Below the pieces are notes generated by a model. That model was not told where the DNA came from. It saw only the letters and a program-made list of their open reading frames with translations, and ran no database searches. From the NCBI RefSeq assembly GCF_988242995.1, contig NZ_OZ547043.1: a DNA stretch of 64,000 nt. One strand, given 5' to 3'. The position numbers were made by a program, and so were the translations under genes. Shown one piece after another: positions 35,483-59,439 of the stretch; the first letter of the stretch is position 1; every line of letters begins with the position of its first letter.

Positions 35483-35528
35483 GTGGTGGTGCACAAAAAA
35501 CTTTTTAAACGAGGGGGTAAAAATAAAA

Positions 35529-35786
35529 ATGCACACATCAGGAAAACTGAACAAACATATAAAGCCACATTACCGCGCCCTTGATATGGCTGAACACTGG
35601 CTAAGGGTGGCGATTAAGGCAATAGACCGCAACGCCGGGGAAGGATACGCGAAAGCACATCCCGAACTGATAAGCGCATTCATGACAACGGCGGCTGCAA
35701 ACTTTGCCACGCTGACCGAACGGGAGATTGCTGAAGCGGAGGAAGTGACAACAATCAATATTAAGTCCGGAGAGCAGGCAGCATGA
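35529..35786 (+). CDS. Hypothetical protein
   Basis: 85-aa ORF upstream of and coupled to ssb. Confidence 0.4.
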   Translation: MHTSGKLNKHIKPHYRALDMAEHWLRVAIKAIDRNAGEGYAKAHPELISAFMTTAAANFATLTEREIAEAEEVTTINIKSGEQAA

Positions 35787-36232
35787 CGGCGCAAATATCA
35801 GTTTACGGGCGGTTGGTGGACGACCCGCAGACAAAACAGACCAGCAAGGGCACCCCCATGACGCTGGCGCGTATGGCGGTATCACTGCCCTGCAGTCAGT
35901 CGGATGACGGTCTGGCGACGTTGTGGTTATCTGTCCTGGCGTTTGGCAGACAAGCCGACGCGCTGGCAAAGCATCACAAAGGCGAACTCCTGAGCGTGGC
36001 GGGTAACATGCAGATGAGCCAGTGGACTGGACAGAACGGCGAAACGCGGCAGGGCTGGCAGGTTATCGCAGACAGCGTAATCAGTGCGCGATCGGTGCGA
36101 CCGGGCGGCAAAAAAGGCCAACAGGGGCAGGCTACTGACGCACTGAACAGAGCAAAACAACAGGCAGATCAGCAAGGAAGCCAGCCACCAGAGGGAGATA
36201 ATGAGCAATGGGGAGATGATATCCCGTTTTAA
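35783..36232 (+). CDS. ssb: Single-stranded DNA-binding protein
   Basis: 149-aa ORF with Gly/Gln-rich linker and acidic C-terminal tail ending DDIPF. Confidence 0.8.
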   Translation: MTAQISVYGRLVDDPQTKQTSKGTPMTLARMAVSLPCSQSDDGLATLWLSVLAFGRQADALAKHHKGELLSVAGNMQMSQWTGQNGETRQGWQVIADSVISARSVRPGGKKGQQGQATDALNRAKQQADQQGSQPPEGDNEQWGDDIPF

Positions 36233-36448
36233 ATATTGCCAATAAAAAAAGCCGGAAAAAATAAATTTTCCGGCATGCTACATAAATCCCGACCAAAGGG
36301 AGTGAAGATATTAACACTAATTGTCCGCACTGAAGTTGTCACCCCAAAACTTTATACAACATTGCACTCGGTTGCATGTGTTCGCATGACAAATATCGGT
36401 GATAGCATATATCCACAATTATTTTTAATGAATGCAAAGAGGATGCGT

Positions 36449-37489
36449 ATGGTTGATTTATATTCGCCTACTCAGCTTGTACAGGTAGTTAATGCTGTAG
36501 ATGTACAAAAACAACTAAATGCGTTATTTACCAGTTTGTTTTTTACTCGCTCGGTAATGTTTGAATCGCGCGATATTATTCTTGATACAATCGACGATCC
36601 AAATATCCCAATTGCAGCGTTTTGTTCTCCTATGGTGGGTAGTAAAGTTTCACGTGACGAAGGGTACGAATCAAAAACAATTCGTCCAGGCTATATGAAG
36701 CCGAAAAGCAGCATTGATCCAAATAAGTTAGCTGTGCGCCCTGCTGGTGTGTCACCTGAGCAATACAATGCTTTTGGGGCGCGTAATATTAAAGTTAAAC
36801 AGGCGATTGTAAATCAGGCTAAAGCTATTCGTGCACGTATTGAATGGCTTGCTGTTCAGGCAATCACAACGGGGAAAAATATCATTGAGGGCGATGGTAT
36901 TGAACGTTATGAGCTGGACTGGAATATAAAACCACAAAATATCATCACTCAGTCTGGCGGTACTGAGTGGTCAGGTAAGGATAAAGAAACTTTTGATCCA
37001 AATGATGATATTGAGAGCTACGCAGAATTTAGTGAGGGCGTCACTAATATCATCATTATGGGTGGTAATGTATGGAAGAAATACCGTTCATTCAGAGCGA
37101 TAAAAGAGGCTTTGGATACCCGTCGTGGTTCTAATTCCGAACTGGAAACGGCCCTTAAAGACCTTGGTGATTCGGTGAGTTTTAAAGGGTATATGGGCGA
37201 TGTTGCGATTGTTGTTTACAGCGGGCGTTATACCGACGAGGACGGAACAGAAAAACATTTCCTTGATCCTGATTTGATGGTGCTTGGCAATACGGCTCTT
37301 CAGGGGATTGTCGCCTATGGCGGTATTCAGGATCCGGAGCTAATCCGAATGGGGCTGACTAAAGCCGAACTTGCACCGAAAAACTATATTGTGCCTGGTG
37401 ATCCGGCTATTGAATATGTGCAGACACATTCAGCACCACAGCCAATACCGGCCCGCATCAATCGTTTTGTTACCGTTCGCATTGGCTAA
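36449..37489 (+). CDS. Satellite-encoded major capsid protein homologue (lambda E-like)
   Basis: 346 aa; aligns with lambda E along its length (e.g. IITQSGGTEWSGKDKETFDPNDDIESYA vs NITQSGGTEWSKRDKSTYDPTDDIEAYA; DTRRGSNSELETALKDLG; GDVAIVVYSG). Confidence 0.8.
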   Translation: MVDLYSPTQLVQVVNAVDVQKQLNALFTSLFFTRSVMFESRDIILDTIDDPNIPIAAFCSPMVGSKVSRDEGYESKTIRPGYMKPKSSIDPNKLAVRPAGVSPEQYNAFGARNIKVKQAIVNQAKAIRARIEWLAVQAITTGKNIIEGDGIERYELDWNIKPQNIITQSGGTEWSGKDKETFDPNDDIESYAEFSEGVTNIIIMGGNVWKKYRSFRAIKEALDTRRGSNSELETALKDLGDSVSFKGYMGDVAIVVYSGRYTDEDGTEKHFLDPDLMVLGNTALQGIVAYGGIQDPELIRMGLTKAELAPKNYIVPGDPAIEYVQTHSAPQPIPARINRFVTVRIG

Positions 37490-37498
37490 GGGGGAGCA

Positions 37499-37840
37499 AT
37501 GGCTACTCATTACACTGAACTCATGGCTGGCACTGAAGCACTGGTGACTACGCTGGGGATATTTTCAGCTAATAAAGGGGTAATTCCTGCATTTACGCCA
37601 CTGATGCAGGAAGATGCAACAGGTGCACTGGTGGTATGGGATGGTTCGAGCGTAGGTAAAGCGGTTTATGTTTCCGCTGTACAAATCGACACCGCGAAAA
37701 AAACACAGGCTCAGGTCTATAAGACAGGTGTCTTAAATGTTGATGCTCTGAACTGGCCTGAGTCTGTTAAAGAACTGTCAGTAAAGGTTGCAGCGTTTGT
37801 TGGCTCAGGTATTTCTGTTCAGCCGCTGGCTCGTGTGTAA
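37499..37840 (+). CDS. Satellite-encoded head decoration protein homologue (lambda D-like)
   Basis: 113-aa ORF; TPLMQEDATGALVVWDGSSVGKAV...VYKTG parallels lambda [22 protein letters not shown]...FYKSG. Confidence 0.7.
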   Translation: MATHYTELMAGTEALVTTLGIFSANKGVIPAFTPLMQEDATGALVVWDGSSVGKAVYVSAVQIDTAKKTQAQVYKTGVLNVDALNWPESVKELSVKVAAFVGSGISVQPLARV

Positions 37841-37851
37841 AGGGGGATACA

Positions 37852-38235
37852 ATGCAGAATGATTACAATGACCTTAAGCCAATTGCCGAAATGATGTACC
37901 CGAATCCAGCTGTAGAGGAATTAAAAGCTATCGCTGACAAAATGTGTTTAAGCGAGCGCCTTGTTGATATGAATCAGGTGATGGAAATTACAACCCTGAG
38001 TCGTCGTACACTGCTAAACCTTGAGGCTAGTGGAGAGTTCCCGGAGCGTGTGCAGGTTACGGAAGGGCGTAAGGCCTGGTATTTAAGTGAAGTGATCGAC
38101 TGGATAAATAATATTCCTCGCGCTTCTGAATATTGCCGCGTACCTGTCCCAAAAAAGCCAGATGCGGCGCTATGCCTCAAGATTGAGCGTGTACGCCGCA
38201 ATGCACGGGATGGTCGCTATAAGCTGATTGGTTGA
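37852..38235 (+). CDS. Winged-HTH (AlpA/MerR-excisionase-like) protein adjacent to satellite cos
   Basis: 127-aa ORF; C-terminal MEITTLSRRTLLNLEASGEFPERVQVTEGRKAWYLSEVIDWINN HTH; strong RBS; ends 20 bp before the cos-homologous region. Confidence 0.6.
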   Translation: MQNDYNDLKPIAEMMYPNPAVEELKAIADKMCLSERLVDMNQVMEITTLSRRTLLNLEASGEFPERVQVTEGRKAWYLSEVIDWINNIPRASEYCRVPVPKKPDAALCLKIERVRRNARDGRYKLIG

Positions 38236-38257
38236 TGAAATTAGGGCCCGCTCTGGC

Positions 38258-38465
38258 TGGCGGGTCCTTTCCGGTGATCCAGAACGTTACGGGGCGTCAG
38301 GCGCGCAGATTCTTGCTATTTATGACAATTTTCTGCGATTTGCCGTTTCCGTTCTTCTTCCTCGTAACTTAGTGTTTTTACTAGAAATACCCTCTAAAAA
38401 GAAAGGAAATGACAGGTGCTGAAAACAGGCTTTTGGGTCTCCGTCATTTCCTTTCTCATTTTTAT
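38258..38465. promoter_or_regulatory. Satellite cos site homologous to the prophage cos (variant cosN GGGCGTCAGGCG at 38292-38303)
   Basis: About 210 bp alignable with 22896-23110; flanking and downstream repeat segments conserved, 12-mer differs at 5 positions. Confidence 0.75.
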
Positions 38466-38718
38466 CTAAAAGTAAGCATCGAGGCCACCCCAAATGCTTA
38501 TAGAGGTTATTGTGTCACTATGCGTACTGTTCAGGATTTAAAGTAGCAAGACATCTAGTTGCTTGCAGTTTTGGCGAATGATGTGAGGTTCTCTATAACA
38601 GATAATGTAACAAGTTACTGATATATTCTGTTATGGTTGACTTTAAATTTTGTTGCTCCTTCAATGAATTATTGAGGGGTAAAAATTAGGCGTGATAAGA
38701 ATCGATCACGCCTATTGT

Positions 38719-40035
38719 TTATCTTGAAGAAATTTTAGGCAGGCTTTTTAAAAATAAATCTTTATTTCTACTTGCATCAGTTAAAAGTGTTAGGAATATT
38801 TTATCTGTAGGAGTGCATGTGCTCTTGTTTAACAGTAATTCACCAAGTTTCTGTAATCGAGAGAATTGCCCATCCTCTTGGATTCTGTGACGAAGTGTAC
38901 TATCATTTTTAATAACATCAACAAATGCAGAAACCATGTTAATATCAAAGTGTTCAAACATTTCCAATATTAAAGGTGCAGCCCCATTTGAATAAAAATT
39001 CTTCCTTCCATACTGATAGCTGAAACCACGATGGCCAACATAAGTTTTTGTAATGGCTGAAACAAATTCAACAATATTATCTTCAGGGACGAAACTCGAG
39101 AATGGTAATAATTGGGTTACGATTTTTTCCTCTTCTGACCAATTATCTAAAGACTCGGTGAGTTTATTAATGAGAGGCTCAATAATAACTTTTCGGGATG
39201 CAGGGCTAATATACATCAGTCCATCTACCAATAGTATGAATTGTTGTGCCTTCTCTATCTTATTGTTGTTTCCTGAAACTAAATACTTGTCAAATTGTTG
39301 GCCGACTTTACGTCGGTCGTCTTTTGAAAGTAATGTCCATAAAATAGGTGCGCAAAATTCAATGTTGTTTCTGAGTTCACTTGATATATTGGATGAGCAG
39401 TATGTGCCAAAAAAACGAGAGGATAATTCACTGATATAAATTGCAGGTAGATCTGAAAAGGCTTGCTTAACTGCCAGACTATTTTTATTAAATGTTGCCG
39501 AATCCATTTCTGAAAGATATGTAGTTATATCTATGATGGCTGGTGGAAACTCTTTAGAAAGAACGTATTTATTACAATCATTAATCAGGTTCACTACTTT
39601 GATTAAATCAGGGTCGCTACTTTGTGGATGTCCACCAAATAGATTCCTGGTTTCTCTAGCTTGTTGTAATAGTTTCTGACCTTCTCGATCGATAACTCCT
39701 ATTTTAAATGCTCCATCTATTAAATCAAAGTCGCTCACATAATCCTGAAAATCTTCATACGTTTTAATTTCTTTTTTTTGTTTACACTCTTTGTTGAATA
39801 GATCTAGGCTACGATGAATTATCTTTTGACGTAAATCATCAACTACAGCATTCCAGTAAGCAGTGATGGCACTTCTATAACCTTTTACAGGAAGAACTCT
39901 TATTGCTTCTGAAATATATGGGCAGTCAACTACATCATGCCTCACAGTTGAGAGCGCAGTTTGTAACAATGTAACTTCTGTAGAGTCTAGTGGAGTTGGC
40001 TGCACTAAATGAGAACTTATCTCTGTACCCTTCAT
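38719..40035 (-). CDS. AT-rich 438-aa protein with HEPN-like R-x5-H motif (candidate anti-phage/abortive-infection protein)
   Basis: Single long ORF in the satellite's variable end; RNLFGGH at residues 130-136; no ATPase motifs; own AT-rich promoter region 40036-40150. Confidence 0.6.
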   Translation of the reverse strand: MKGTEISSHLVQPTPLDSTEVTLLQTALSTVRHDVVDCPYISEAIRVLPVKGYRSAITAYWNAVVDDLRQKIIHRSLDLFNKECKQKKEIKTYEDFQDYVSDFDLIDGAFKIGVIDREGQKLLQQARETRNLFGGHPQSSDPDLIKVVNLINDCNKYVLSKEFPPAIIDITTYLSEMDSATFNKNSLAVKQAFSDLPAIYISELSSRFFGTYCSSNISSELRNNIEFCAPILWTLLSKDDRRKVGQQFDKYLVSGNNNKIEKAQQFILLVDGLMYISPASRKVIIEPLINKLTESLDNWSEEEKIVTQLLPFSSFVPEDNIVEFVSAITKTYVGHRGFSYQYGRKNFYSNGAAPLILEMFEHFDINMVSAFVDVIKNDSTLRHRIQEDGQFSRLQKLGELLLNKSTCTPTDKIFLTLLTDASRNKDLFLKSLPKISSR

Positions 40036-40393
40036 TTCAGGATTTTCCTATTCTTTTCCATTTTTCTACTCTATTGAATTTGAAAAAGATATCAAGTTCG
40101 TTCTTGCCAGTTTTAAGTGGAAAATTTGATGTTACCTTATTGAGATAAGGCAGTTCTCTATAACCTATTGTTATTAATTATTTTTATTTTTTTCCAATTC
40201 AGATGTTTAGGGCTAAGAAGTTAAGTGAGAGTTCACAGCAAAACTGCTTCTAGTTCCTCACCGAGGAGCAAAAGGTTAAGACAGCGTACTTTGTATTGCA
40301 CAATGTATTGCAGAACCTTCTTTCGAAAGCTACAACAATCAATTTTATATTGAAAATTCAATCATATCCTTTCGATATTGACTCATATAACCC

Positions 40394-41179
40394 AAGCATG
40401 AGGTGAATCCGCAGATGACCCTGCGTCGCCTGCCGGATGAAGATCCGCAGAATCTGGCGGACCCGGCTTACCGCCGCCGTCGCATCATTATGCAGAACAT
40501 GCGTGACGAAGAGCTGGCCATTGCCCAGGTCGAAGAGATGCAGGCAGTTTCTGCCGTGCTTAAGGGCAAATACACCATGACCGGTGAAGCTTTCGATCCG
40601 GTTGAGGTGGATATGGGCCGCAGTGCGGCCAACAACATCACGCAGTCCGGCGGCACGGAGTGGAGCAAGCGTGACAAGTCCACGTATGACCCGACCGACG
40701 ATATCGAAGCCTACGCGCTGAACGCCAGCGGAGTGGTGAATATCATCGTGTTTGATCCGAAAGGCTGGGTGCTGTTCCGTTCCTTCAAAGCCGTCAAGGA
40801 GAAGCTGGATACTCGTCGCGGCTCTCATTCCGAGCTGGAGACAGCGGTGAAAGACCTGGGCAAAGCGGTGTCCTACAAGGGGATGTATGGCGATGTGGCC
40901 ATCGTCGTGTATTCCGGACAGTACGTGGAAAACGGCGTCAAAAAGAACTTCCTGCCGGACAACACGATGGTGCTGGGGAACACTCAGGCACGCGGTCTGC
41001 GCACCTATGGCTGCATTCAGGATGCGGACGCACAGCGCGAAGGCATTAACGCCTCTGCCCGTTACCCGAAAAACTGGGTGACCACCGGCGATCCGGCGCG
41101 TGAGTTCACCATGATTCAGTCAGCACCGCTGATGCTGCTGGCTGATCCTGATGAGTTCGTGTCTGTACAACTGGCGTAA
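40394..41179 (+). pseudogene. E: Major capsid gene E, 3' fragment (codons 83-341)
   Basis: From KHEVNPQMTLRRLPDEDPQ... to ...DEFVSVQLA, matching lambda E downstream of the break. Confidence 0.9.
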
Positions 41180-50204: not shown

Positions 50205-53200
50205 ATGGGTAAAGGCAGCAGTAAGGGGCATACCCCGCGCGAAGCGAAGGACAACCTGAAGTCCACGCAGCTGCTGAGTGTGATCGATGCCATCAGCGAA
50301 GGGCCGGTTGAAGGTCCGGTGGATGGATTAAAAAGCGTGCTGCTGAACAGTACGCCGGTGCTGGACAGTGAGGGGAATACCAATATATCCGGCGTCACGG
50401 TGGTGTTCCGGGCCGGTGAGCAGGAGCAGACTCCGCCGGAGGGATTTGAATCCTCCGGTTCCGAGACGGTGCTGGGTACGGAAGTGAAATATGACACGCC
50501 GATCACCCGCACCATCACGTCGGCAAACATCGACCGTCTGCGCTTTACCTTCGGTGTGCAGGCACTGGTGGAAACCACCTCAAAGGGGGACAGGAATCCA
50601 TCGGAAGTCCGCCTGCTGGTTCAGATACAACGTAACGGTGGCTGGGTGACGGAAAAAGACATCACCATTAAGGGTAAAACCACCTCGCAGTATCTGGCCT
50701 CAGTGGTGGTGGATAACCTGCCGCCGCGCCCGTTTAATATCCGGATGCGCAGGATGACGCCGGACAGCACCACAGACCAGCTGCAGAACAAAACGCTCTG
50801 GTCGTCATACACCGAAATCATCGATGTGAAACAGTGCTACCCGAACACGGCACTGGTCGGCGTGCAGGTGGACTCGGAGCAGTTCGGCAGCCAGCAGGTG
50901 AGCCGTAATTATCATCTGCGCGGGCGTATTCTGCAGGTGCCGTCGAACTATAACCCGCAGACGCGGCAATACAGCGGTATCTGGGACGGGACGTTTAAAC
51001 CGGCATACAGCAACAACATGGCCTGGTGTCTGTGGGATATGCTGACCCATCCGCGCTACGGCATGGGGAAGCGTCTCGGTGCGGCGGATGTGGACAAATG
51101 GGCGCTGTATGTCATCGGCCAGAATTGCGACCAGTCGGTGCCGGATGGCTTTGGTGGCACGGAGCCGCGCATCACCTGTAATGCCTGGCTGACCACGCAG
51201 CGCAAGGCGTGGGATGTGCTCAGTGATTTCTGCTCGGCGATGCGCTGTATGCCGGTATGGAACGGGCAGACGCTGACGTTCGTGCAGGACCGGCCATCGG
51301 ATAAGGTGTGGACCTATAACCGCAGTAATGTGGTGATGCCGGATGATGGCGCGCCGTTCCGCTACAGCTTCAGCGCCCTGAAGGACCGTCATAATGCCGT
51401 TGAGGTGAACTGGATTGACCCGGATAACGGCTGGGAGACGGCGACAGAGCTTGTGGAGGACACGCAGGCCATTGCCCGTTACGGTCGTAACGTCACGAAG
51501 ATGGATGCCTTTGGCTGTACCAGCCGGGGGCAGGCACACCGCGCCGGGCTGTGGCTGATTAAAACAGAACTGCTGGAAACGCAGACCGTGGATTTCAGCG
51601 TCGGCGCAGAAGGGCTTCGCCATGTACCGGGTGATGTTATTGAAATCTGCGATGATGACTATGCGGGGATCAGCATTGGCGGGCGCGTGCTGGCGGTGAA
51701 CAGCCAGACCCGGACGCTGACGCTCGACCGTGAAATCACGCTGCCATCCTCCGGTACCACGCTGATAAGCCTGGTTGACGGGCAGGGGAGTCCGGTCAGC
51801 GTGGAGGTTCAGTCCGTCACCGACGGCGTGAAGGTGAAAGTGAGTCGGGTTCCTGACGGCGTTGCCGAATACAGCGTGTGGGGGCTGAAGCTGCCGACGC
51901 TGCGCCAGCGCCTGTTCCGCTGTGTGAGTATCCGTGAGAACGATGACGGCACGTATGCCATCACCGCCGTGCAGCATGTACCGGAAAAAGAAGCCATCGT
52001 GGATAACGGGGCGCACTTTGACGGCGACCAGAGCGGCACGGTGAATGGTGTCACGCCGCCAGCGGTGCAGCACCTGACCGCCGAAGTCACCGCAGACAGC
52101 GGGGAATATCAGGTGCTGGCGCGATGGGACACGCCGAAGGTGGTGAAGGGCGTGAGCTTCCTGCTTCGCCTTACCGTGGCAGCGGACGACGGCAGTGAGC
52201 GGCTGGTCAGCATGGCCCGGACGACGGAAACCACATACCGCTTCAGGCAACTGGCGCTGGGGAACTACAGGCTGACAGTCCGGGCGGTAAATGCGTGGGG
52301 GCAGCAGGGCGATCCGGCGTCGGTATCGTTCCGGATTGCCGCACCGGCAGCACCGTCGAGGATTGAGCTGACGCCGGGCTATTTTCAGATAACCGCCACG
52401 CCGCATCTTGCCGTTTATGACCCGACGGTACAGTTTGAGTTCTGGTTCTCGGAAAATCGGATTGCGGATATCAGGCAGGTTGAAACCAGCGCGCGTTATC
52501 TTGGCACGGCGCTGTACTGGATAGCCGCCAGTATCAATATCAAACCGGGCCATGATTATTATTTTTACGTTCGCAGTGTGAACACCGTCGGCAAATCGAC
52601 ATTCGTGGAGGCTGTCGGTCGGGTGAGCGATGATGCGGAAGGTTACCTGGATTTTTTCAAAGGCAAGATAACCGAATCCCATCTCGGCAAGGAGCTGCTG
52701 GAAAAAGTCGAGCTGACGGAGGATAACGCCAGCAGACTGGAGGAGTTTTCGAAAGAGTGGAAGGACGCCAACGATAAGTGGAATGCCATGTGGGCTGTCA
52801 AAATTGAGCAGACCAAAGACGGCAAACATTATGTCGCGGGTATTGGCCTCAGCATGGAGGACACGGAGGAAGGCAAACTGAGCCAGTTCCTGGTTGCCGC
52901 TAACCGTATCGCATTTATTGACCCGGCAAACGGGAATGAAACGCCGATGTTTGTGGCGCAGGGCAATCAGATATTCATGAACGAAGTGTTCCTGAAATAT
53001 CTGACGGCTCCCACCATTACCAGCGGCGGTAATCCTCCGGCATTTTCCCTGACACCGGACGGGCGGCTGACGGCGAAAAATGCCGATATCAGCGGTAACG
53101 TGAATGCGAACTCCGGGACGCTCAACAACGTCACGATTAACGAGAACTGCCGGGTTCTGGGAAAACTGTCCGCGAACCAGATTGAAGGCGATCTCGTTAA

Positions 53201-53600
53201 AACAGTGGGCAAAGCTTTCCCCCGTGACTCCCGGGCACCGGAGCGGTGGCCATCAGGGACCATTACCGTCAGGGTTTATGACGATCAGCCGTTTGACCGG
53301 CAAATTGTTATTCCGGCGGTGGCATTCAGTGGCGCTAAGCATGAGAGAGAGCATACTGATATTTACTCCTCATGCCGTCTGATAGTGCGGAAAAACGGTG
53401 CTGAAATTTATAACCGTACCGCGCTGGATAATACGCTGATTTACAGTGGCGTTATTGATATGCCTGCCGGTCACGGTCACATGACACTGGAGTTTTCGGT
53501 GTCAGCATGGCTGGTAAATGGCTGGTATCCCACAGCAAGTATCAGCGATTTGCTGGTTGTTGTGATGAAGAAAGCCACTGCAGGCATCACGATTAGCTGA
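50205..53600 (+). CDS. J: Tail tip / host-specificity protein J
   Basis: 1131-aa ORF matching lambda J. Confidence 0.95.
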
Positions 53601-53618
53601 ATTTTATAACCCAGATAC

Positions 53619-53645
53619 GGGCACCAGAAATGGTGCCTTTTTTAT
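53619..53645 (+). terminator. Rho-independent terminator after J
   Basis: GGGCACC-AGAAAT-GGTGCC hairpin followed by TTTTTTT. Confidence 0.55.
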
Positions 53646-53667
53646 TGCAGAAAAGCGAGAGGTAATT

Positions 53668-54267
53668 ATGCGTAAATTATGTGCTGTTATTCTGTCCGCA
53701 GTAGTCTGGCTGGTTGCCGCTGGTACGCCAGCGAGCGCAGCAGAGCATCAGTCCACACTAAGCGCCGGGTATCTTCAGACCCATACTGATATGCCAGGCA
53801 GTGATGACCTGAAGGGCATTAACGTGAAATACCGTTATGAATTTACGGACATGCTGGGGCTGGTGACGTCATTCAGTTATGCCAATGCCAAAGATGAGCA
53901 AAGAACGCATTACAGCGATACCCGCTGGCATGAAGATTCAGTGCGTAACCGCTGGTTCAGCATGATGGCGGGGCCATCTGTACGCGTGAATGAATGGTTC
54001 AGTGCTTATGCGATGGCAGGTGTGGCTTACAGCCGTGTTTCGACGTTCTCCGGGGATTATCTCCGCGTAACTGACAACAAGGGGAAAACGCACGATGTGC
54101 TGACCGGAAGTGATGACGATCGCCACAGCAACACGTCTCTGGCGTGGGGAGCTGGCGTGCAGTTTAACCCGACCGAATCCGTGGCCATTGATATTGCTTA
54201 TGAAGGCTCCGGCAGTGGCGACTGGCGCACTGACGGTTTCATCGTGGGTGTCGGTTATAAGTTCTGA
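53668..54267 (+). CDS. lom: Outer-membrane protein Lom
   Basis: 199-aa ORF matching lambda Lom (Ail/Lom family). Confidence 0.9.
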   Translation: MRKLCAVILSAVVWLVAAGTPASAAEHQSTLSAGYLQTHTDMPGSDDLKGINVKYRYEFTDMLGLVTSFSYANAKDEQRTHYSDTRWHEDSVRNRWFSMMAGPSVRVNEWFSAYAMAGVAYSRVSTFSGDYLRVTDNKGKTHDVLTGSDDDRHSNTSLAWGAGVQFNPTESVAIDIAYEGSGSGDWRTDGFIVGVGYKF

Positions 54268-54292
54268 TTAGCCAGGTAACACAGTGTTATGA

Positions 54293-54321
54293 CAGCCCGC
54301 CGGTTCAGGCGGGCTTTTTTG
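54293..54321 (+). terminator. Rho-independent terminator after lom
   Basis: AGCCCGCC-GGTTCA-GGCGGGCT hairpin followed by TTTTTT. Confidence 0.6.
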
Positions 54322-54331
54322 TGGAGTGGAT

Positions 54332-56722
54332 ATGGCAGCAGTAAAAATCTCAGGTGTGCTGAAAGATGGTGCGGGAAAACCAATACAGAACTGCACTATT
54401 CAACTGAAGGCAAAGCGTAACAGCACCACGGTACTGGTGAACACGGTGGCTTCTGAAAATCCGGATGAAGCCGGACGTTACAGCATGGATGTTGAGTATG
54501 GCCAGTACAGCGTCACCCTGCTGGTTGAAGGTTTTCCGCCTTCACATGCCGGGACCATTACCGTCTATGAAGGCTCCAGACCAGGTACGCTGAATGATTT
54601 TCTCGGTGCCATGACGGAAGATGATGTCATGCCGGAGGCATTGCGTCGTTTTGAGGCAATGGTGGAAGAAGCGGCACACAACGCTGAAGCCACCTTTCAG
54701 AGCGCAGCGGCGGCAAAGAAATCCGAAGCTGCTGCGGCATCATCGAAGAACGCGGCGAAAAGCTCAGAAACGAATGCAGCTAACAGCGCACAGGCGGCAG
54801 CGGCCTCACAGACTGCATCGGCAAACTCCGCGACAGCAGCCCAAAAATCAGAAGCCAACGCGAAAAATAGCGAAACAGCCGCAAAGACGAGCGAAACCAA
54901 CGCGAAGTCCAGCCAGACGGCAGCGAAAACCAGCGAAACGAATGCCAAAACCAGTGAAACTGCGGCGAAAAGCAGTCAGGCTGCAGCAGCCGAAAGCGAG
55001 AGTGCTGCAGCCGGTTCTGCGACTTCAGCAGCTGGATCAGCAACTGCTGCGGCTAACAGCCAGAAAGCAGCGAAGACGAGCGAAACTAACGCAAAGTCCA
55101 GCCAGACGGCAGCGAAGACCAGCGAAACGAATGCCAAAGCCAGCGAAACTGCGGCGAAAAACAGTCAGGATGCAGCGGCCCAAAGCGAGAGTGCCGCAGC
55201 TGGTTCTGCAAGTGCGGCGGCTTCTTCTGCCACTGCATCAGCCAACAGTCAAAAAGCTGCAAAAACCAGTGAAACCAACGCAAAGGCGAGCGAGACTGCG
55301 GCGGCGAACTCGGCGCAAGCATCGGCAGCAAGCCAGACAGCAGCTAAAGCAAGTGAAGACGCAGCCAGAGAGTATGCAAGCCAGGCAGCGGAGCCGTATA
55401 AACAAGTTTTGCAGCCGTTGCCCGATGTGTGGATACCGTTTAATGATTCACTGGATATGATTACGGGCTTTTCGCCATCATATAAAAAAATTGTTATTGG
55501 TGACGATGAAATAACGATGCCTGGCGACAAGATTGTTAAGTTTAAACGTGCATCAACGGCTACATATGTCAATAAATCCGGGGAACTGAAAATTGTAGCA
55601 ATCGACGAACCACGATTTGAAAAAGATGGTTTACTGATTGAAGGCCAACGAAGCAATTCATTTGCAGATTCTAATAATCCGTCGTTATGGAATAAAGCCG
55701 CACAATTGAATATAACCAATGGCAAAGATGAATTTGGTTTTACCTATGGTCTTATTAATGTTGTAGCCGAAACAAGCACTACCGGACGCGCTACATTTAT
55801 TTCAACTGGATATCCAAGATCAATGCCAGCAAAGGCAGGGGAATCTCTTACAATATCCTTCCGAGTTAAAAAAGTTGCTGGTGATGGGGTTCTGACAGTA
55901 TATCCGAGGATTGCTTATGTAAATGATGATGGCTCTAGTAATACTCTTTCTTCGAATGCCTATATAAATGCGGAAACGGGCGAAGTTTTAGGAACTCCTG
56001 CAGGCGGAAGCTCGACGAAAGTATATACTAAAATTGAATCCAATGGATGGTTGTTTGTATCTTTGACTTATAAAACCGCAGAAGACAAAACATTTTATGG
56101 TCGAATTGAAGTTGGTGCACATAAACGAGATATACAGATTGGTGATCAGTGGATGATAACGACACCGCAATTTGAAGTTGGTAGCAGTGCTTCTTCTTTT
56201 ATTATTTCTGGATCTGCGACAACGACAAGAGCGAGTGATTTAGTTACAATCCCGATCAAAAACAATATCTACAATTTACCGCTTACTGTAATGTGCGAAA
56301 CTAATCTTAATTGGGAATGGGATTCTCCGCCAAATGCCGCACCTAGAATAATGGATTTTACGGGTCAAAAAGCGGGGCAGGCCATAATTTATGGTCTACG
56401 TGGTGGGACTGCGGTTGATACTGGATCGCCCTATGTTGATATGGGTGATGGCGCTACAAGAATTAATAAGTATGTAAAAACAACAAATCGAAAGTTTATC
56501 TCTGGCTTTAGGTGTAAAGAAAATGGAGATACTCAAGCGTTTTGTAATTCTGTTTTTTCATCGTCTGCAAGGACAGATTATATTCATGTAGCACCAACTG
56601 CAACGATAAGATTTGGTGGGCAAACCAGTACGGGTGAGCGTCATATATTCGGACACATCCGAAATTTCAGGATTTGGCATAAAGCGTTAACTGATGCACA
56701 AATGGGGGAGAGTATTAAATGA
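54332..56722 (+). CDS. stf: Side tail fibre protein with Ala/Ser/Thr-rich repeat shaft
   Basis: N-terminus MAAVKISGVLKDGAGKPIQNCTIQLKA... matches lambda Stf; shaft of SETNAK-type repeats; distinct C-terminal domain. Confidence 0.85.
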   Translation: MAAVKISGVLKDGAGKPIQNCTIQLKAKRNSTTVLVNTVASENPDEAGRYSMDVEYGQYSVTLLVEGFPPSHAGTITVYEGSRPGTLNDFLGAMTEDDVMPEALRRFEAMVEEAAHNAEATFQSAAAAKKSEAAAASSKNAAKSSETNAANSAQAAAASQTASANSATAAQKSEANAKNSETAAKTSETNAKSSQTAAKTSETNAKTSETAAKSSQAAAAESESAAAGSATSAAGSATAAANSQKAAKTSETNAKSSQTAAKTSETNAKASETAAKNSQDAAAQSESAAAGSASAAASSATASANSQKAAKTSETNAKASETAAANSAQASAASQTAAKASEDAAREYASQAAEPYKQVLQPLPDVWIPFNDSLDMITGFSPSYKKIVIGDDEITMPGDKIVKFKRASTATYVNKSGELKIVAIDEPRFEKDGLLIEGQRSNSFADSNNPSLWNKAAQLNITNGKDEFGFTYGLINVVAETSTTGRATFISTGYPRSMPAKAGESLTISFRVKKVAGDGVLTVYPRIAYVNDDGSSNTLSSNAYINAETGEVLGTPAGGSSTKVYTKIESNGWLFVSLTYKTAEDKTFYGRIEVGAHKRDIQIGDQWMITTPQFEVGSSASSFIISGSATTTRASDLVTIPIKNNIYNLPLTVMCETNLNWEWDSPPNAAPRIMDFTGQKAGQAIIYGLRGGTAVDTGSPYVDMGDGATRINKYVKTTNRKFISGFRCKENGDTQAFCNSVFSSSARTDYIHVAPTATIRFGGQTSTGERHIFGHIRNFRIWHKALTDAQMGESIK

Positions 56723-57000
56723 AAGATTTAACACTAAAATTTTCTGACAGGGCCGACTTTTCGGCCTTTATGGATAGCATTGGCTATTATGATGACGAGT
56801 CGATGCAGGATGATATTCTCATTGACGTGATAGGTAACGTGTACAAAGAAACCGGAGAACTGAATGAAGATGGCGAACCGGTATGTGTTAAGGAAGACGG
56901 ATATTTTGTAAACGTGCGCATCATTAATGATGTGAAAACACCGTCAATATTCGATGAATACGTGGTTGCTGTTGAGCATCAACTTCGTGGCTGGATGTGA
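56719..57000 (+). CDS. Hypothetical protein downstream of stf (possible fibre-associated chaperone)
   Basis: 93-aa ORF translationally coupled to the stf stop. Confidence 0.4.
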   Translation: MKDLTLKFSDRADFSAFMDSIGYYDDESMQDDILIDVIGNVYKETGELNEDGEPVCVKEDGYFVNVRIINDVKTPSIFDEYVVAVEHQLRGWM

Positions 57001-57009
57001 GGAAGAAAA

Positions 57010-57699
57010 ATGGCTACATCGACAGTAATTCCGGGAGACATTACCACGCTAAAGGGAGATGTCAGTAAAGCTAAGGAAGATATTTCCTCAATTAACGGAA
57101 AAGTATCAACGCTTCAGACTGATATGACCAGTGCAAAGCAGGATATCAGCACCAGATACACAAAAACTGAAGTTGATAATAAGCTGAAAAACAAAGTGGA
57201 AGTGAACGATCTGGAAAGTGGTCGTTATGGCGGAGATTTTTACCCGCTGACTGGCCGTGAAGCGTTTTATTTATGGGGATTGGGCACAACTACAGCGGCG
57301 GCAAATCTTTATCTTAATCCTGACCCTGCAATTTCGTCTGTGCTGCGGTCAACATCGTCTATCCGCTATAAACATTCAGTAGAGACGATAGATTCAGAGC
57401 ACGCCGATCTCATTTTCAAGATGCGCCCTGTATGGTACAGGTCGCAATGCGAAAATGACAGGCGCGGTTGGGGATTCTATGGATTGATTGCCGAGGAAGT
57501 AGGAGAAATTGCCCCTCAGTTTGTACACTGGCGACCAGCTAACGAGAATGATGCTCCTGAAGCTATTTCCAGCAATGGCCTTGTTGCCGAAGGTGTAATG
57601 TACGAACGTCTGGTTGTTCCACTGATTCACCATATCCAGAAACTGACTGAAAGAGTTGAAGAACTTGAGTCAGAATTAAAGTTGTTATCAACTTCCTGA
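57010..57699 (+). CDS. Short tail-fibre/spike-like protein with C-terminal intramolecular chaperone-like domain
   Basis: 229-aa ORF; C-terminal region (WGFYGLIAEEVGEIAPQFV...LESELKLL) recalls the S74-type auto-processing chaperone domain. Confidence 0.5.
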   Translation: MATSTVIPGDITTLKGDVSKAKEDISSINGKVSTLQTDMTSAKQDISTRYTKTEVDNKLKNKVEVNDLESGRYGGDFYPLTGREAFYLWGLGTTTAAANLYLNPDPAISSVLRSTSSIRYKHSVETIDSEHADLIFKMRPVWYRSQCENDRRGWGFYGLIAEEVGEIAPQFVHWRPANENDAPEAISSNGLVAEGVMYERLVVPLIHHIQKLTERVEELESELKLLSTS

Positions 57700-57706
57700 A
57701 GCGATA

Positions 57707-58018
57707 TTGGATAAAGGAGGAGTAATGGATATAACACCTTTCCTTCACGCGCTTTGTGCTGTGGCTGCGCAGGTACTGGTTGGTCTTTTTACCGGGAACT
57801 GGGCTTACGGGGCGATAGCCGGTTGTACGTTCTTCATTGCGCGTGAACACACCCAGGCAGAATATCGCTGGATTGAAATGTTCGGGCATGGCAAGCGAAT
57901 GAATATGCCGTGGTGGGGCGGTTTTGATCCGCGAGCGTGGGATGTGGCAAGCCTGATGGATTTTGCTGTGCCGGTGGTGGCGTGTCTGCTGGTCTGGCTG
58001 TTGGTTAATCGTGGGTGA
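57707..58018 (+). CDS. Hypothetical membrane protein
   Basis: 103-aa ORF with two hydrophobic segments; RBS AAGGAGG. Confidence 0.4.
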   Translation: MDKGGVMDITPFLHALCAVAAQVLVGLFTGNWAYGAIAGCTFFIAREHTQAEYRWIEMFGHGKRMNMPWWGGFDPRAWDVASLMDFAVPVVACLLVWLLVNRG

Positions 58019-58027
58019 AAAAAGGTG

Positions 58028-58147
58028 AGCTGTATATGCAACGGAGGAAGAAACCCCGTTGCTGGAAGCCTGGAAAAAGTATCGGGTGCTGCTAAACCGT
58101 GTGGACACTTCCGTAGCACCAGATATCGAGTGGCTTATTCAACCATA
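58028..58147 (+). pseudogene. tfaX: Tail fibre assembly gene remnant (3' end only)
   Basis: Frame encodes ...[34 protein letters not shown], the conserved Tfa C-terminus, with no N-terminal part. Confidence 0.65.
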
Positions 58148-58689
58148 ATAAACAGTATGTATATCATAGGTTATTAATTGTGAGTTTTTTCGGTGTGTTA
58201 TTTGTTTGATGTTATGATTTTGCGCCCCAAAAGGTTGTTTAGATGTATTTTATCAATTGATTTTCAATATCGTTTAATAAAGAAAAATTAAGCAAGTTGG
58301 ATGTTGGTTTTTTGTTAATTGAATGGTTCTAATAATGTTTTTTTACTGTTGTTGAATGTGACTTGATAAGAAATGCAAGTAAAAATGATACTCTTTTTAT
58401 TTTAAATTCAAACGGTTGACATATATATAGCAAGAGGTTTCAGGTGCGTTGTAGTGAGTTTATGTTAATAAAAAGCATAGTAAGCGTTGAAAAATGTAAC
58501 TTTGAAATACGTTAGAATAAAAAACAATATACATATAATAATTTAATCTTAAATGAAATTTATTAAAAATTGCAAACTATAATTTTGTGTATAAAAATAT
58601 AAATGCACATCATCCTGATTATGATTGTGTATTTAATTGGTTGTTATTTGACTACTATCAACTTGTTTTAATTTTATGATAGGTGCAAG

Positions 58690-59439
58690 ATGGATTATGT
58701 TTGCTCCGTAGTTTTCATCTGTCAATCATTTGATTTAATTATAAACAGGAGAGTTATCTCGTTCAAAAAAAATTCATTGTTTATTGTAAGCGACAAAATT
58801 AGAAGAGAGTTACCAGTATGCCCCTCTAAACTAAGAATTGTTGATATAGATAAGAAAACATGTTTATCCTTTTTTATCGACGTGAATAATGAGTTGCCTG
58901 GCAAATTTACTCTTGATAAGAATGGCTATATTGCTGAAGAGGAACCTCCATTATCGCTTGTTTTTTCTCTGTTTGAAGGGATTAAAATAGCAGACTCACA
59001 CTCCCTTTGGTTAAAAGAAAGACTATGTATATCCTTACTTGCCATGTTCAAAAAACGCGAAAGTGTAAATTCATTTATACTAACAAATATAAATACATTT
59101 ACCTGTAAAATTACTGGAATAATCAGTTTTAATATTGAGCGGCAATGGCATTTAAAAGATATTGCGGAATTGATTTATACGAGTGAAAGTTTAATAAAAA
59201 AAAGATTAAGGGATGAAGGAACGTCATTTACTGAAATATTGAGAGATACTAGGATGAGGTATGCAAAAAAACTCATAACTTCAAACTCTTATTCTATCAA
59301 TGTCGTAGCCCAGAAATGTGGCTATAACAGTGCTTCATATTTCATATGTGCATTTAAAGATTATTATGGTGTCACGCCATCTCATTATTTTGAGAAAATA
59401 ATCGGCGTCACAGATGGAATAAACAAAACAATTGACTGA
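58690..59439 (+). CDS. appY: AraC-family regulator AppY
   Basis: 249-aa [34 protein letters not shown]... preceded by a 540-bp AT-rich region. Confidence 0.9.

What the first reader, a model, noticed from the sequence alone, without database searches (positions are those of the whole stretch)
54332..58147. Mosaic tail-fibre locus: repeat-shaft Stf, a short protein with chaperone-like C-terminus, and a tfa remnant
The side tail fibre has a lambda-like N-terminus, an imperfect tandem repeat shaft of about 189 bp per unit (about 54870-55330) and a distinct C-terminal domain. It is followed by a 229-aa protein whose C-terminus resembles an intramolecular chaperone domain, a small membrane protein, and only the last ~39 codons of a tail-fibre assembly gene. 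This indicates repeated recombination at the host-range locus.
Basis: partly seen in the sequence, partly recalled or inferred. Interest (0 to 1): 0.35.

Follow-up and report, generated by a model that had tools for sequence, protein, structure and literature searches.

The report
Mosaic prophage side tail-fibre locus
This is the host-recognition end of a lambda-like E. coli prophage: a modular three-protein side tail fibre, a small membrane protein and a dead scar of an older assembly gene, which is a well-documented kind of recombination patchwork and is ordinary.

Summary
The window is a lambda-like prophage at argU, the DLP12 site. Its tail-fibre locus holds five parts.

- **Stf (54332-56722):** a lambda-type N-terminal domain, an Ala/Ser shaft with 2.3 copies of a 189-bp unit, and two lectin-like beta-sandwich domains.
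- **gp93 (56719-57000):**
- **gp229 (57010-57699):** a 229-aa protein with a genuine S74 self-cleaving intramolecular-chaperone domain.
- **gp97 (57725-58018):** a conserved 97-aa membrane protein.
- **tfa scar (58027-58148):** the non-coding last 36-39 codons of tfa.

- Stf C-terminus, gp93 and gp229 form a conserved three-gene fibre cassette, not debris. The same cassette occurs in virulent T1-like, T5-like, Nonagvirus and Dhillonvirus phages. gp229 is most likely the short distal subunit.
- The tfa scar travels with the cassette. Here it is a hybrid, with a crossover at 58074-58088 to the resident tfaX remnant upstream of appY.
- Recombination breakpoints can be mapped directly.

The locus is already annotated this way in RefSeq, and gp229 is in 745 of 5426 complete E. 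coli genomes. Interest is low.

The parts
54332..56722 (+). stf: side tail fibre protein. 796 aa from the PGAP start, 798 aa from GTG 54326. All residue numbers in this report count from 54326.
   Evidence: ORF; PGAP annotation of a 99.8%-identical genome; full-length match to PHROG 1419 'tail protein'.
54338..54727 (+). Lambda-type Stf N-terminal domain that docks the fibre on the tail (residues 5-134).
   Evidence: Pfam PF08400, E 7e-65. PDB chain 9e7m_Ta 'Tail fiber protein' matches residues 5-97 at E 9e-49.
54869..55303 (+). Ala/Ser-rich shaft repeat: 2.3 copies of a 189-bp (63-aa) unit built from heptad-like SETNAK motifs. Copy number varies between phages.
   Evidence: TRF score 590, 82% matches, 0 indels, 21/42-bp sub-periods. 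IdasGreatGrand lacks exactly 189 bp. The same motif occurs in the shaft of T5-like IrisVonRoten gp22.
55370..55650 (+). Conserved junction ('AEPYK..LQPLPDVWIPFNDSL..FEKDGLLIEGQR'). It is the left recombination linker of the receptor-binding cassette, and the GC step lies here.
   Evidence: 70-78% nucleotide identity to T1-like, T5-like, Nonagvirus and Dhillonvirus lateral-fibre genes. Nearly invariant columns in alignment A3. GC falls from 52-58% to 37-43%.
55650..56610 (+). Hypervariable receptor-binding core, covering most of two lectin-like beta-sandwich domains.
56719..57000 (+). gp93: small acidic protein translationally coupled to stf (ATGA overlap). Probable fibre assembly factor or connector.
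   Evidence: PHROG 1361, E 2e-45. Homologues sit directly after a fibre gene in every locus examined, from 179 phage records across six phage groups. dN/dS 0.16-0.38.
57010..57699 (+). gp229: short distal fibre subunit. It has an N-terminal docking motif (MATSTVIPGDITTLK), a coiled coil (about residues 12-60) and a short conserved tip (63-115), followed by the S74 domain.
   Evidence: dN/dS 0.17. Present in 745 of 5426 genomes, 739 of them full length.
57355..57699 (+). S74 intramolecular-chaperone (self-cleaving) domain of gp229, residues 116-229. Predicted cleavage between Thr115 and Ser116, using a Ser116/Lys121 dyad (SSIRYK).
   Evidence: Pfam PF13884 starts at residue 116, which is profile position 1. 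Lys121 is invariant and Ser116 is at least 90% conserved in 34 sequences. Foldseek: MyRF ICA domain 7dc3 at E 1.5e-5, then 3gud and 3gw6.
57725..58018 (+). gp97: conserved small membrane protein of unknown role, found downstream of host-recognition genes in several phage types.
   Evidence: PHROG 1443, E 4e-59. 97% identical to phage 21 gp24, which is annotated 'putative membrane protein'. 80% identical to a gene after the tailspike of P22-like phage JEP4. dN/dS 0.13-0.24. Hydropathy.
58027..58148 (+). Non-coding 3' scar of a tail-fibre assembly gene (tfa). It is a hybrid: 58027-58073 is the type carried by the mobile cassette, 58074-58088 is the crossover interval, and 58089-58148 is the K-12 tfaX type, continuous with the appY upstream region.
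   Evidence: Caudo_TAP, E 7.8e-15, profile positions 95-130 of 131. 31 of 36 residues match TfaD. No start codon and an upstream in-frame stop. Mismatch maps.

Best explanation
The region is the distal end of the late operon of a lambda-like prophage integrated at argU, the DLP12 site. It encodes a modular side tail fibre made of three proteins.

1. **Stf** anchors to the tail through a lambda-type N-terminal domain. It extends through an Ala/Ser-rich heptad shaft whose length changes by gain or loss of 189-bp units. It ends in two lectin-like beta-sandwich domains that probably bind a surface glycan.
2. **gp93** is a small protein translated in coupling with Stf and is always found directly after this kind of fibre gene. 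It probably helps assemble the fibre tip or connects it to the next subunit.
3. **gp229** is a short distal subunit. It trimerises with the help of its own C-terminal S74 chaperone domain and cuts that domain off between Thr115 and Ser116. The mature 115-residue stub then docks on the Stf/gp93 end through its conserved N-terminal motif.

gp97 is a conserved membrane protein of undetermined role.

The tfa fragment is a dead scar. It was left when this cassette, which does not use Tfa, replaced a classical stf-tfa pair by recombination between the conserved stf 5' part and the conserved tfa 3' end. The same conserved 3' end later recombined with the resident tfaX remnant (crossover 58074-58088) and joined the phage to appY-ompT-envY.

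**Shown:** the domain identities, the conservation, the synteny and the breakpoints.

**Inferred:** glycan binding, the role of gp93, the self-cleavage and docking of gp229, and the order of events.
For: **Context.**
- tRNA-Arg(tct) lies at 2814-2890 with the integrase at 2906-4069.
- appY, ompT and envY lie downstream.

**Stf domains:**

**The same three-gene syntax occurs in other phage groups.**
- T1-like KarlJaspers shows 44%, 50% and 61% identity for fibre C-terminus, gp93 and gp229. SECphi27 has the same layout.
- T5-like IrisVonRoten gp22/gp23/gp24 shows 42% identity over 755 aa for the proximal fibre. T5-like L6jm has the same syntax.
- Nonagvirus ESCO3 and JenP1 have it too.
- Dhillonvirus KarlBarth has it too.

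**Third-gene docking motif.** The N-terminal motif M[AV]TxTxIPxDI[TK]xLK is shared by third-gene products of 98-576 aa whose distal parts differ.

**Published model.** For IrisVonRoten, an intramolecular-chaperone-bearing distal fibre is modelled attached to the proximal fibre, which carries a galectin-like domain (PMC11990801).

**S74 domain:**

**Purifying selection.** All three small genes are under purifying selection. gp229 is intact in 739 of 745 genomes that carry it.

**Isolated phages carry the module:** IdasGreatGrand and PhiR49_1.

**tfa scar.** The scar travels with the cassette at three chromosomal sites and in phage 21. Its hybrid structure is shown.
Against: - No experiment or complex prediction here shows that gp229 or gp93 is in the virion or that they contact Stf.
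- Both AF2 models are monomer predictions of presumably trimeric proteins and have moderate confidence (mean pLDDT 68.7 and 68.6). gp229 residues 63-118, the putative tip and cleavage site, are below pLDDT 50.
- Phage 21 and Lambda_2E9 have Stf, gp92 and gp97 without any gp229-like gene, so gp229 is dispensable for this fibre type.
- gp229 lacks the receptor-binding domains of its 351-576-aa counterparts, so what the mature stub would bind is unclear.
- Pfam Laminin_G_3 is not detected in this Stf by hmmscan at E <= 0.1, although it is recorded for homologues.
- The hybrid scar does not say whether it arose by deletion of a ybcY segment or by recombination of an incoming phage with resident DLP12 remnants.
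Confidence: 0.7

Rival explanations
1. gp229 is a free-standing chaperone acting in trans. Its S74 domain would template trimerisation of Stf, or of another fibre, instead of folding its own N-terminal part, and gp229 would never enter the virion. This is the sense of the GenBank label 'putative lateral tail fiber chaperone' on its T1-like homologues.
For: - The homologues are annotated that way in KarlJaspers and PeterMerian.
- The mature part is very short and carries no recognisable receptor-binding domain.
- The tfa gene, which is the usual chaperone, is missing from the locus.
Against: - The label derives from the Pfam name, not from a test.
- Presence of gp229 does not track the Stf allele. 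KarlJaspers has gp229 while Lambda_2E9 and phage 21 do not, yet their fibre C-termini are of similar type.
- The feature shared by all third-gene products is the N-terminal motif, not the chaperone domain. KarlBarth gp30 has the motif in a 98-aa protein whose size leaves no room for such a domain.
- The 50 residues before the cleavage site are among the best conserved in the protein, as expected for a folded mature part.
- Known S74 domains act in cis (established knowledge: endosialidase K1F, T5 pb1).
Confidence: 0.15
2. gp229 is recombination debris: the decaying C-terminal stump of a once longer fibre gene that happens to keep an ORF. This is the reading implied by the first reader.
For: - The whole protein aligns to the last 240 positions of a 1385-position fibre family, PHROG 3299.
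- Longer relatives of 351-576 aa occupy the same slot in other phages.
- In this window the gene has lost its last 5 codons to a premature stop compared with the 234-aa form.
Against: - dN/dS is 0.17.
- It is full length in 739 of 745 E. coli genomes that carry it.
- Full-length homologues at 55-63% identity are kept in compact virulent T1-like genomes.
- It has its own ribosome-binding site and ATG, and an N-terminus shared with other fibre families: PHROGs 4563 and 19752 at positions 1-32.
Confidence: 0.1
3. The tfa fragment is retained because it still does something, for example as a regulatory element or terminator, or as a small peptide, rather than as a neutral scar.
For: - It is carried at 96-100% identity with the cassette in prophages at three chromosomal sites and in phage 21.
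- K-12 tfaX is annotated as a protein.
Against: - There is no in-frame start codon, and an in-frame stop lies just upstream.
- PGAP calls it an incomplete pseudogene.
- No terminator-like or above-background promoter-like site lies in it.
- In phage 21 it is cut at 58093 and replaced by the sit operon.
- Its repeated use as a crossover point explains its persistence.
Confidence: 0.05

Closest known systems
Lateral tail fibre locus of T5-like phage IrisVonRoten (Bas32): gp22 proximal fibre, gp23, and gp24 T-shaped distal fibre (BASEL collection, PMC11990801)
   Same: - The gene order and spacing are the same.
- gp22 is 42% identical to Stf over 755 aa, including the SETNAK shaft and the lectin-like C-terminus.
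- gp23 is a gp93 homologue at 39% identity.
[quoted passage not shown]
   Different: - gp24 is 574 aa with two receptor-binding domains. gp229 has none and is only 229 aa.
- The proximal fibre anchors through a T5-type N-terminus, not a lambda-type one.
- IrisVonRoten is a virulent 112-kb phage.
Lateral tail fibre locus of T1-like Drexlerviridae, for example KarlJaspers (Bas06) gp37-gp36-gp35 and SECphi27 gp81-gp79
   Same: It has the same three genes with the short third gene: 221-235 aa, 58-64% identical to gp229 over its full length. The fibre C-terminus is 44% identical and the 92-aa protein is 50% identical.
   Different: - The fibre N-terminus and shaft are of Drexlerviridae type.
- There is no gp97 gene and no tfa scar.
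- The third gene is labelled 'putative lateral tail fiber chaperone', which is untested.
Side tail fibre locus of phage 21 and the Lambda_2E9 group: Stf, a 92-aa protein, a 97-aa membrane protein, then sitDCBA
   Same: - The Stf N-terminus is lambda-type.
- The C-terminal architecture is the same (43% identity).
- There is a gp93 homologue (51-53% identity).
- gp97 is 97% identical.
- The first 56 nt or so of the tfa scar are present at 96% identity.
   Different: - There is no gp229 gene.
- The scar is truncated at the position matching window 58093 and is followed by a sit transporter operon instead of tfaX-appY.
Classical lambda Stf/Tfa pair
   Same: The N-terminal tail-docking domain (PF08400) and the Ala/Ser-rich shaft are shared. 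The locus lies after J and lom.
   Different: - The C-terminal receptor-binding part is unrelated.
- tfa is reduced to its last 36 codons.
- gp93 sits where tfa would be.
S74 C-terminal intramolecular chaperone domains (endosialidase K1F 3gw6, GA-1 neck appendage 3gud, the PDB L-shaped tail fibre chain 8hqz_d, MyRF ICA 7dc3)
   Same: - The Pfam family matches.
- The S-x-x-R-x-K Ser/Lys motif sits at the start of the domain.
- The predicted fold matches.
- There is a terminal coiled-coil helix.
   Different: The passenger part in front of the domain is only 115 residues, far shorter than in the characterised examples. Cleavage has not been shown.
E. coli K-12 DLP12 right end: tfaD - ybcY (reverse) - tfaX - appY
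   Same: From 58074 onward the window is identical to K-12 tfaX and its downstream sequence as far as compared (58200). From 58038 to 58700 it is 98% identical.
   Different: K-12 has lost the tail genes and keeps two tfa fragments flanking ybcY. The window has a full prophage, one hybrid scar and no ybcY.

Membership tests
Peptidase S74 / intramolecular chaperone auto-processing domain (gp229 C-terminus) | Sequence match to PF13884 above the curated threshold | tested here: met
   26.7 bits against a cut-off of 22, E 6.9e-6, residues 116-172 aligned to profile positions 1-57 of 58. PDB chain 8hqz_d C-terminus matches at E 1.4e-6.
Peptidase S74 / intramolecular chaperone auto-processing domain (gp229 C-terminus) | Ser/Lys catalytic dyad in an S-x-x-R-x-K motif at the start of the domain | tested here: met
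   Ser116-Ser-Ile-Arg-Tyr-Lys121. Lys121 is invariant and Ser116/117 are at least 90% conserved in 34 homologues. That this motif is the dyad comes from established knowledge of endosialidase K1F and MyRF.
Peptidase S74 / intramolecular chaperone auto-processing domain (gp229 C-terminus) | Characteristic fold | tested here: met
   AF2 model residues 120-229 have pLDDT 75-94. Foldseek top hits are MyRF ICA 7dc3 (E 1.5e-5, probability 1.0), then 3gud and 3gw6. The model is a monomer, so the trimeric packing was not assessed.
Peptidase S74 / intramolecular chaperone auto-processing domain (gp229 C-terminus) | Trimerisation-dependent self-cleavage and release of the domain | not testable with these tools
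   This needs protein expression with wild-type and S116A/K121A forms.
Lambda-type side tail fibre (Stf) with Tfa | N-terminal tail-attachment domain PF08400 | tested here: met
   E 7e-65. PDB 9e7m_Ta matches at E 9e-49.
Lambda-type side tail fibre (Stf) with Tfa | An intact cognate tfa gene directly downstream | tested here: not met
   Only profile positions 95-130 of 131 of Caudo_TAP remain, with no start codon. The gene directly downstream is gp93, which has no Pfam or NCBIfam match.
Tail fibre assembly protein Tfa (PF02413 Caudo_TAP) | Full-length coding sequence covering the profile | tested here: not met
   36 of about 190 codons remain, an in-frame stop lies at 58026-58028, and PGAP marks it 'incomplete; missing N-terminus'.
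Three-gene lateral fibre cassette (proximal fibre, ~92-aa protein, distal fibre) as in IrisVonRoten, KarlJaspers and ESCO3 | Proximal fibre with the conserved PLPDVWIPFNDSL junction and a lectin-like C-terminus ending in ..FGHIRNFRIWHK.LTD | tested here: met
   42-44% identity to IrisVonRoten gp22 and the KarlJaspers lateral fibre, with these motifs aligned. Invariant columns in alignment A3.
Three-gene lateral fibre cassette (proximal fibre, ~92-aa protein, distal fibre) as in IrisVonRoten, KarlJaspers and ESCO3 | A ~92-aa gene overlapping or abutting the fibre stop codon | tested here: met
   gp93 is 39-97% identical to the corresponding genes, with an ATGA overlap.
Three-gene lateral fibre cassette (proximal fibre, ~92-aa protein, distal fibre) as in IrisVonRoten, KarlJaspers and ESCO3 | Third gene about 10 nt downstream whose product starts M[AV]TxTxIPxDI[TK]xLK | tested here: met
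   gp229 starts MATSTVIPGDITTLK. The motif is present in all eight other third-gene products compared. The junction DNA is 90% identical to ESCO3.
Three-gene lateral fibre cassette (proximal fibre, ~92-aa protein, distal fibre) as in IrisVonRoten, KarlJaspers and ESCO3 | Distal subunit carries receptor-binding domains (the T-shaped dual RBD of IrisVonRoten gp24) | tested here: not met
   gp229 aligns to gp24 only at residues 1-28 and 112-226. The roughly 430 intervening residues of gp24 have no counterpart.
Concanavalin-A-like lectin / LamG / CBM fold (Stf C-terminal domains) | Beta-sandwich jelly-roll fold similar to known glycan-binding modules | tested here: met
Concanavalin-A-like lectin / LamG / CBM fold (Stf C-terminal domains) | Actual glycan binding | not testable with these tools
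   This needs binding assays.

The most novel reading that the evidence does not exclude
gp229-type proteins could be a distinct use of the S74 module: a distal 'fibre' reduced to docking motif, coiled coil and chaperone. After self-cleavage it would leave only a 115-residue cap on the side fibre, occupying or regulating the docking site that longer receptor-binding subunits use in other phages. Alternatively, its chaperone domain could work in trans on Stf. Either would be an undescribed role for an 'intramolecular' chaperone domain, and the gene is present in about 14% of complete E. coli genomes and in many T1-like phages.
Probability: 0.15. Interest if true: 0.45.

Novelty: already known. 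Interest (0 to 1): 0.2.

Why it matters
It matters little beyond careful annotation.

- The locus is a clean worked example of how host-range cassettes move between temperate and virulent coliphages through short conserved linkers. Here those linkers are the stf junction, the stf-end/gp93/first 65 nt of the third gene, and the tfa 3' end.
- The mapped linkers and the N-terminal docking motif of the third gene could guide the design of chimeric fibres for host-range engineering.
- The roles of gp93, gp229 and gp97 are still untested, although they occur in hundreds of genomes, including E. coli B- and C-lineage strains.

Tried and rejected
**Searches that returned nothing useful**
- Literature searches for the phage names PhiR49_1 and IdasGreatGrand, for phage 21 side tail fibre plus sitABCD, and for tfaX/ybcY/DLP12 found nothing relevant.
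- The tail-fibre structure atlas preprint says nothing on this family.
- NCBIfam gave no family for gp93, gp229, gp97 or the scar. Pfam gave nothing for gp93 or gp97.
- The promoter and terminator scan of 53500-58800 found no more sites than shuffled sequence. It found terminator-like hairpins only after J and after lom, and none in or after the scar.
- One Pfam call failed because my frame included the stop codon; it was repeated correctly.
- A direct-repeat search for att sites of the element in the capsid gene found nothing convincing. The junction was solved instead by aligning to an intact capsid gene.

**Ideas considered and rejected**
- I considered that the tfa fragment is the remains of an invertible (Pin/Gin-type) segment, because a recombinase gene follows it in strain 631. 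The fragment is in direct orientation, no inverted partner is present in the window, and the other sites lack the recombinase.
- I considered that the split capsid gene makes the prophage dead and the fibre genes irrelevant. The interrupting element is a helper-embedded PICI of a described type, which is reported to excise precisely on induction (PMC10111431).

- I did not use the third large protein search or the representative-library search, because the function of gp97 was peripheral to the finding.

Full report
**Context**

The window starts in the sfm fimbrial genes and fimZ. It then has tRNA-Arg(tct) at 2814-2890 and a phage integrase at 2906-4069 on the minus strand. This is the argU attachment site of the K-12 cryptic prophage DLP12.

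Lambda-type terminase, portal, protease, tail tube, tape measure, J (50205-53600) and lom (53668-54267) follow. To the right lie appY (58690-59439), ompT and envY, as at the right end of DLP12. The finding is therefore the distal end of the late operon of a full-length lambdoid prophage in the DLP12 position.

**Check of the observation**

- **Stf.** The ORF is 54326-56722, and the PGAP start in the 99.8%-identical strain GF131 is 54332. Residues 5-134 match Pfam PF08400 at E 7e-65. Residues 5-97 match the solved 94-residue PDB chain 9e7m_Ta, named 'Tail fiber protein', at E 9e-49.
- **Tandem repeat.** Tandem Repeats Finder reports 54869-55303, period 189, 2.3 copies, 82% matches, no indels, score 590, with 21- and 42-bp sub-periods that correspond to heptad-like SETNAK motifs.
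- **229-aa ORF (57010-57699).** It matches PF13884 Peptidase_S74 above the curated threshold. It also matches the C-terminus of a solved L-shaped tail fibre (8hqz_d) at E 1.4e-6.
- **Membrane protein.** It really starts at ATG 57725 behind an AAAGGAGGAG ribosome-binding site and is 97 aa long.
- **tfa remnant.** It covers 58038-58148, with DNA homology from about 58027. It matches the last 36 positions of Pfam Caudo_TAP at E 7.8e-15 and is 31/36 identical to the end of K-12 TfaD. It has no start codon and sits behind an in-frame stop.

**The Stf C-terminal half**

From about residue 350 the protein has no lambda-Stf homology, and GC content drops from 52-58% to 37-43%. Residues 437-636 match NCBIfam NF048003, 'phage head spike fiber domain', at 57.7 bits against a cut-off of 36.

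An AF2 model of residues 350-798 has mean pLDDT 68.6. The two domain blocks score 75-92, and the first 100 residues are poor, as expected for a trimeric intertwined segment modelled as a monomer. It shows two beta-sandwiches.

- Foldseek agrees.
- Many homologues carry the Pfam Laminin_G_3 label, although hmmscan does not report it for this protein.

A glycan-binding role is an inference from the fold.

**gp229**

Its C-terminal half is a bona fide S74 intramolecular-chaperone domain.

- The Pfam match starts at residue 116, which is profile position 1.
- The motif Ser116-Ser-Ile-Arg-Tyr-Lys121 has the S-x-x-R-x-K spacing of the Ser/Lys dyad known from endosialidase K1F and MyRF. Lys121 is invariant and Ser116 at least 90% conserved in 34 homologues.
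- An AF2 model has mean pLDDT 68.7, with residues 120-229 at 75-94 and residues 63-118 below 50. It hits the MyRF ICA domain (7dc3, E 1.5e-5, probability 1.0) and then the GA-1 (3gud) and endosialidase (3gw6) chaperone structures.

**gp229 is not debris**

- A large protein search finds a family of free-standing 221-269-aa proteins aligned over the full length.
- The gene is in 745 of 5426 complete E. coli genomes, full length in 739, including C41(DE3).
- dN/dS against three lambdoid copies is 0.17.
- Full-length homologues at 55-63% identity occur in about 45 virulent T1-like Drexlerviridae genomes.

**A three-gene cassette shared across phage families**

| Phage (group) | First gene | Second gene | Third gene |
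|---|---|---|---|
| KarlJaspers, Bas06 (T1-like) | lateral tail fibre, C-terminus 44% identical to Stf 350-798 | 92 aa, 50% identical to gp93 | 225-aa annotated CDS (221 aa from the internal ATG), 61% identical to gp229 |
| SECphi27 (T1-like) | same layout | same layout | same layout |
| IrisVonRoten, Bas32 (T5-like) | gp22, 42% identical to Stf over 755 aa, including the shaft motif | gp23, a gp93 homologue | gp24, 574 aa, begins MVTKTVIPTDITKLK and ends in an intramolecular-chaperone domain |
| L6jm (T5-like) | long fibre | ~92 aa | 576 aa |
| ESCO3 and JenP1 (Nonagvirus) | long fibre | ~93 aa | 351 aa |
| KarlBarth (Dhillonvirus) | long fibre | 85 aa | 98 aa |

- All these third-gene products begin with the motif M[AV]TxTxIPxDI[TK]xLK, although their distal parts differ.
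- gp93 homologues occur in 179 phage records, and in every locus I examined they lie directly after a fibre gene.
- The BASEL authors modelled IrisVonRoten gp24 as a T-shaped distal receptor-binding fibre attached to the proximal fibre, which carries a galectin-like domain at its end (PMC11990801).

By homology and synteny, gp229 is the shortest chaperone-bearing allele of that distal subunit. It keeps the docking motif, a coiled coil, a short conserved tip and the chaperone, but has no receptor-binding domains.

The GenBank label 'putative lateral tail fiber chaperone' on its T1-like homologues is an untested reading of the Pfam name. I keep it as a rival at 0.15. I rank it low for two reasons:

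- The presence of gp229 does not track the Stf allele.
- The feature common to the third-gene products is the N-terminal motif, not the chaperone domain.

**gp97**

This protein is 97% identical in phage 21, where it is annotated as a putative membrane protein. It is 80% identical to a gene placed after the tailspike of the P22-like phage JEP4. Its dN/dS is 0.13-0.24. Its function is not determined here.

**Mosaic structure and breakpoints**

- **Phage 21 and the Lambda_2E9 group** carry Stf, gp92, gp97 and the first 56 nt or so of the tfa scar, followed by sitDCBA, with no gp229 gene. gp229 is therefore an optional insert between gp93 and gp97.
- **Flanks without the core.** Isolated phages IdasGreatGrand and PhiR49_1 match the window at 91-93% on both sides of 55650-56610, but not inside it.
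- **A rare core allele.** That core occurs in only 9 of 5426 genomes, always 100% identical.
- **A sharp breakpoint.** Against prophages at the prfC site (strain 631) and the potB site (strain A1_136), the window has 0 mismatches from 55304 to 57009. It has 3.3% mismatches in gp229 and 3.6% in gp97 plus scar, so a breakpoint lies at about 57010. The lom region differs by 0.3% in one strain and 5.5% in the other.
- **Repeat copy number.** IdasGreatGrand lacks exactly one 189-bp shaft unit.
- **Exchange with virulent phages.** The virulent Nonagvirus ESCO3 shares 90.3% nucleotide identity with window 56631-57074, which spans the Stf end, gp93 and the first 65 nt of the third gene.

The conserved stretches 55370-55650 and 56610-57074 therefore behave as linkers between exchangeable cassettes.

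**The tfa scar**

The same 36-codon scar follows gp97 in prophages at three chromosomal sites and in PhiR49_1. It was most simply left when this Tfa-independent cassette replaced a classical stf-tfa pair.

In the window the scar is a hybrid.

- It has no mismatch to the cassette-borne scar from 58000 to 58088, and 12-13 mismatches after that.
- It has 7 mismatches and an indel against K-12 tfaX before 58074, and none from 58074 to 58200, the end of the stretch compared.
- The crossover therefore lies in the 15 bp from 58074 to 58088.

Strain A1_136, PhiR49_1 and K-12 all carry two tfa ends flanking a reversed methyltransferase gene, ybcY. The window lacks ybcY. Either the segment between the two direct repeats was deleted, or an incoming phage recombined with the resident remnant. 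The data do not distinguish these.

**Verdict**

- The Stf C-terminus, gp93 and gp229 form a conserved three-gene cassette.
- gp229 is a maintained gene, not a leftover.
- The tfa scar is a recombinant.

The kind of thing is textbook, and RefSeq already annotates this locus in the same terms. I therefore rate novelty 'already known' and interest 0.2.

**Seen in passing**

The prophage's major capsid gene E is split at 29306/40397 by an element of about 11 kb. The element carries an integrase, AlpA, a primase, SSB, and its own capsid and decoration genes. This matches the described helper-embedded PICI type '11capE' at site E:Phage_cap_E:80 (PMC10111431). The junction is present in 172 of 5426 genomes.

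Noticed in passing
window 29034-41179 (insertion about 29307-40396): The prophage's lambda-type major capsid gene E is split into an N-terminal fragment (29034-29315) and a C-terminal fragment (40403-41179) by an element of about 11.1 kb. The element carries a P4-type integrase (29418-30704), AlpA, a D5_N primase (33488-35239), SSB, its own capsid gene (36236-37489, 48% identical to the prophage's) and a decoration gene. The insertion is precise: the capsid sequence stops after ...AAGCA and resumes at TGAGGTG. It matches the published helper-embedded PICI type '11capE' (PMC10111431). The junction is in 172 of 5426 complete E. coli genomes.
   Followed up: yes
window 11775-15683 (+): A 1302-aa inverse autotransporter of intimin/invasin type (IAT_beta, Big_1 and Invasin_D3 domains) is encoded in the early region of the prophage, apparently as cargo.
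   Followed up: no
window 57697-57699: gp229 ends 5 codons earlier here (…LLSTS*) than the common 234-aa form (…LLSTSQSDIG or …RSDIG). A TGA replaces CAA/CGA. The same 229-aa form is in strain GF131 under a RefSeq protein accession (WP_000235982.1). The lost residues lie at the very end of the part predicted to be cleaved off.
   Followed up: partly
L006 (phage PhiR49_1, PV340568.1), locus 2428-9278: An isolated phage propagated on ECOR13 carries the same Stf, gp93, gp234 and gp97 module followed by the tfa scar, ybcY in reverse, a second tfa fragment and then ompT. In other words, a DLP12-like right end including ompT sits on a phage deposited as a complete genome.
   Followed up: partly
window 56631-57074 versus L014 (Nonagvirus ESCO3) 3414-3855: There is 90.3% nucleotide identity between this temperate prophage and a virulent Queuovirinae phage across the fibre 3' end, gp93 and the first 65 nt of the third gene. 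The sequences diverge completely beyond that, which suggests fairly recent exchange between temperate and virulent phages.
   Followed up: partly
window 57725-58018 (gp97 residues 31-34): gp97 has an invariant lipobox-like I-A-G-C at residues 31-34. It follows a hydrophobic N-terminus that has no positively charged residues. The phage 21 record notes a 29-aa signal sequence. Whether gp97 is a lipoprotein or a polytopic membrane protein is unresolved.
   Followed up: no
window 18722-19681 (+): An ORF inside the prophage combines a 2-thiouracil desulfurase domain with DUF1722, which is unusual cargo for a lambdoid early or late region.
   Followed up: no
L002 (strain 631) 7947-8537; L003 (strain A1_136) 7912-8903: Downstream of the same cassette, other prophages carry different cargo directly after the tfa scar: a Pin-like recombinase with ydfK and dinI-like genes at the prfC site, and ybcY plus a second tfa fragment at the potB site. 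Phage 21 has sitABCD there. The scar marks the boundary of a cargo-exchange site.
   Followed up: partly
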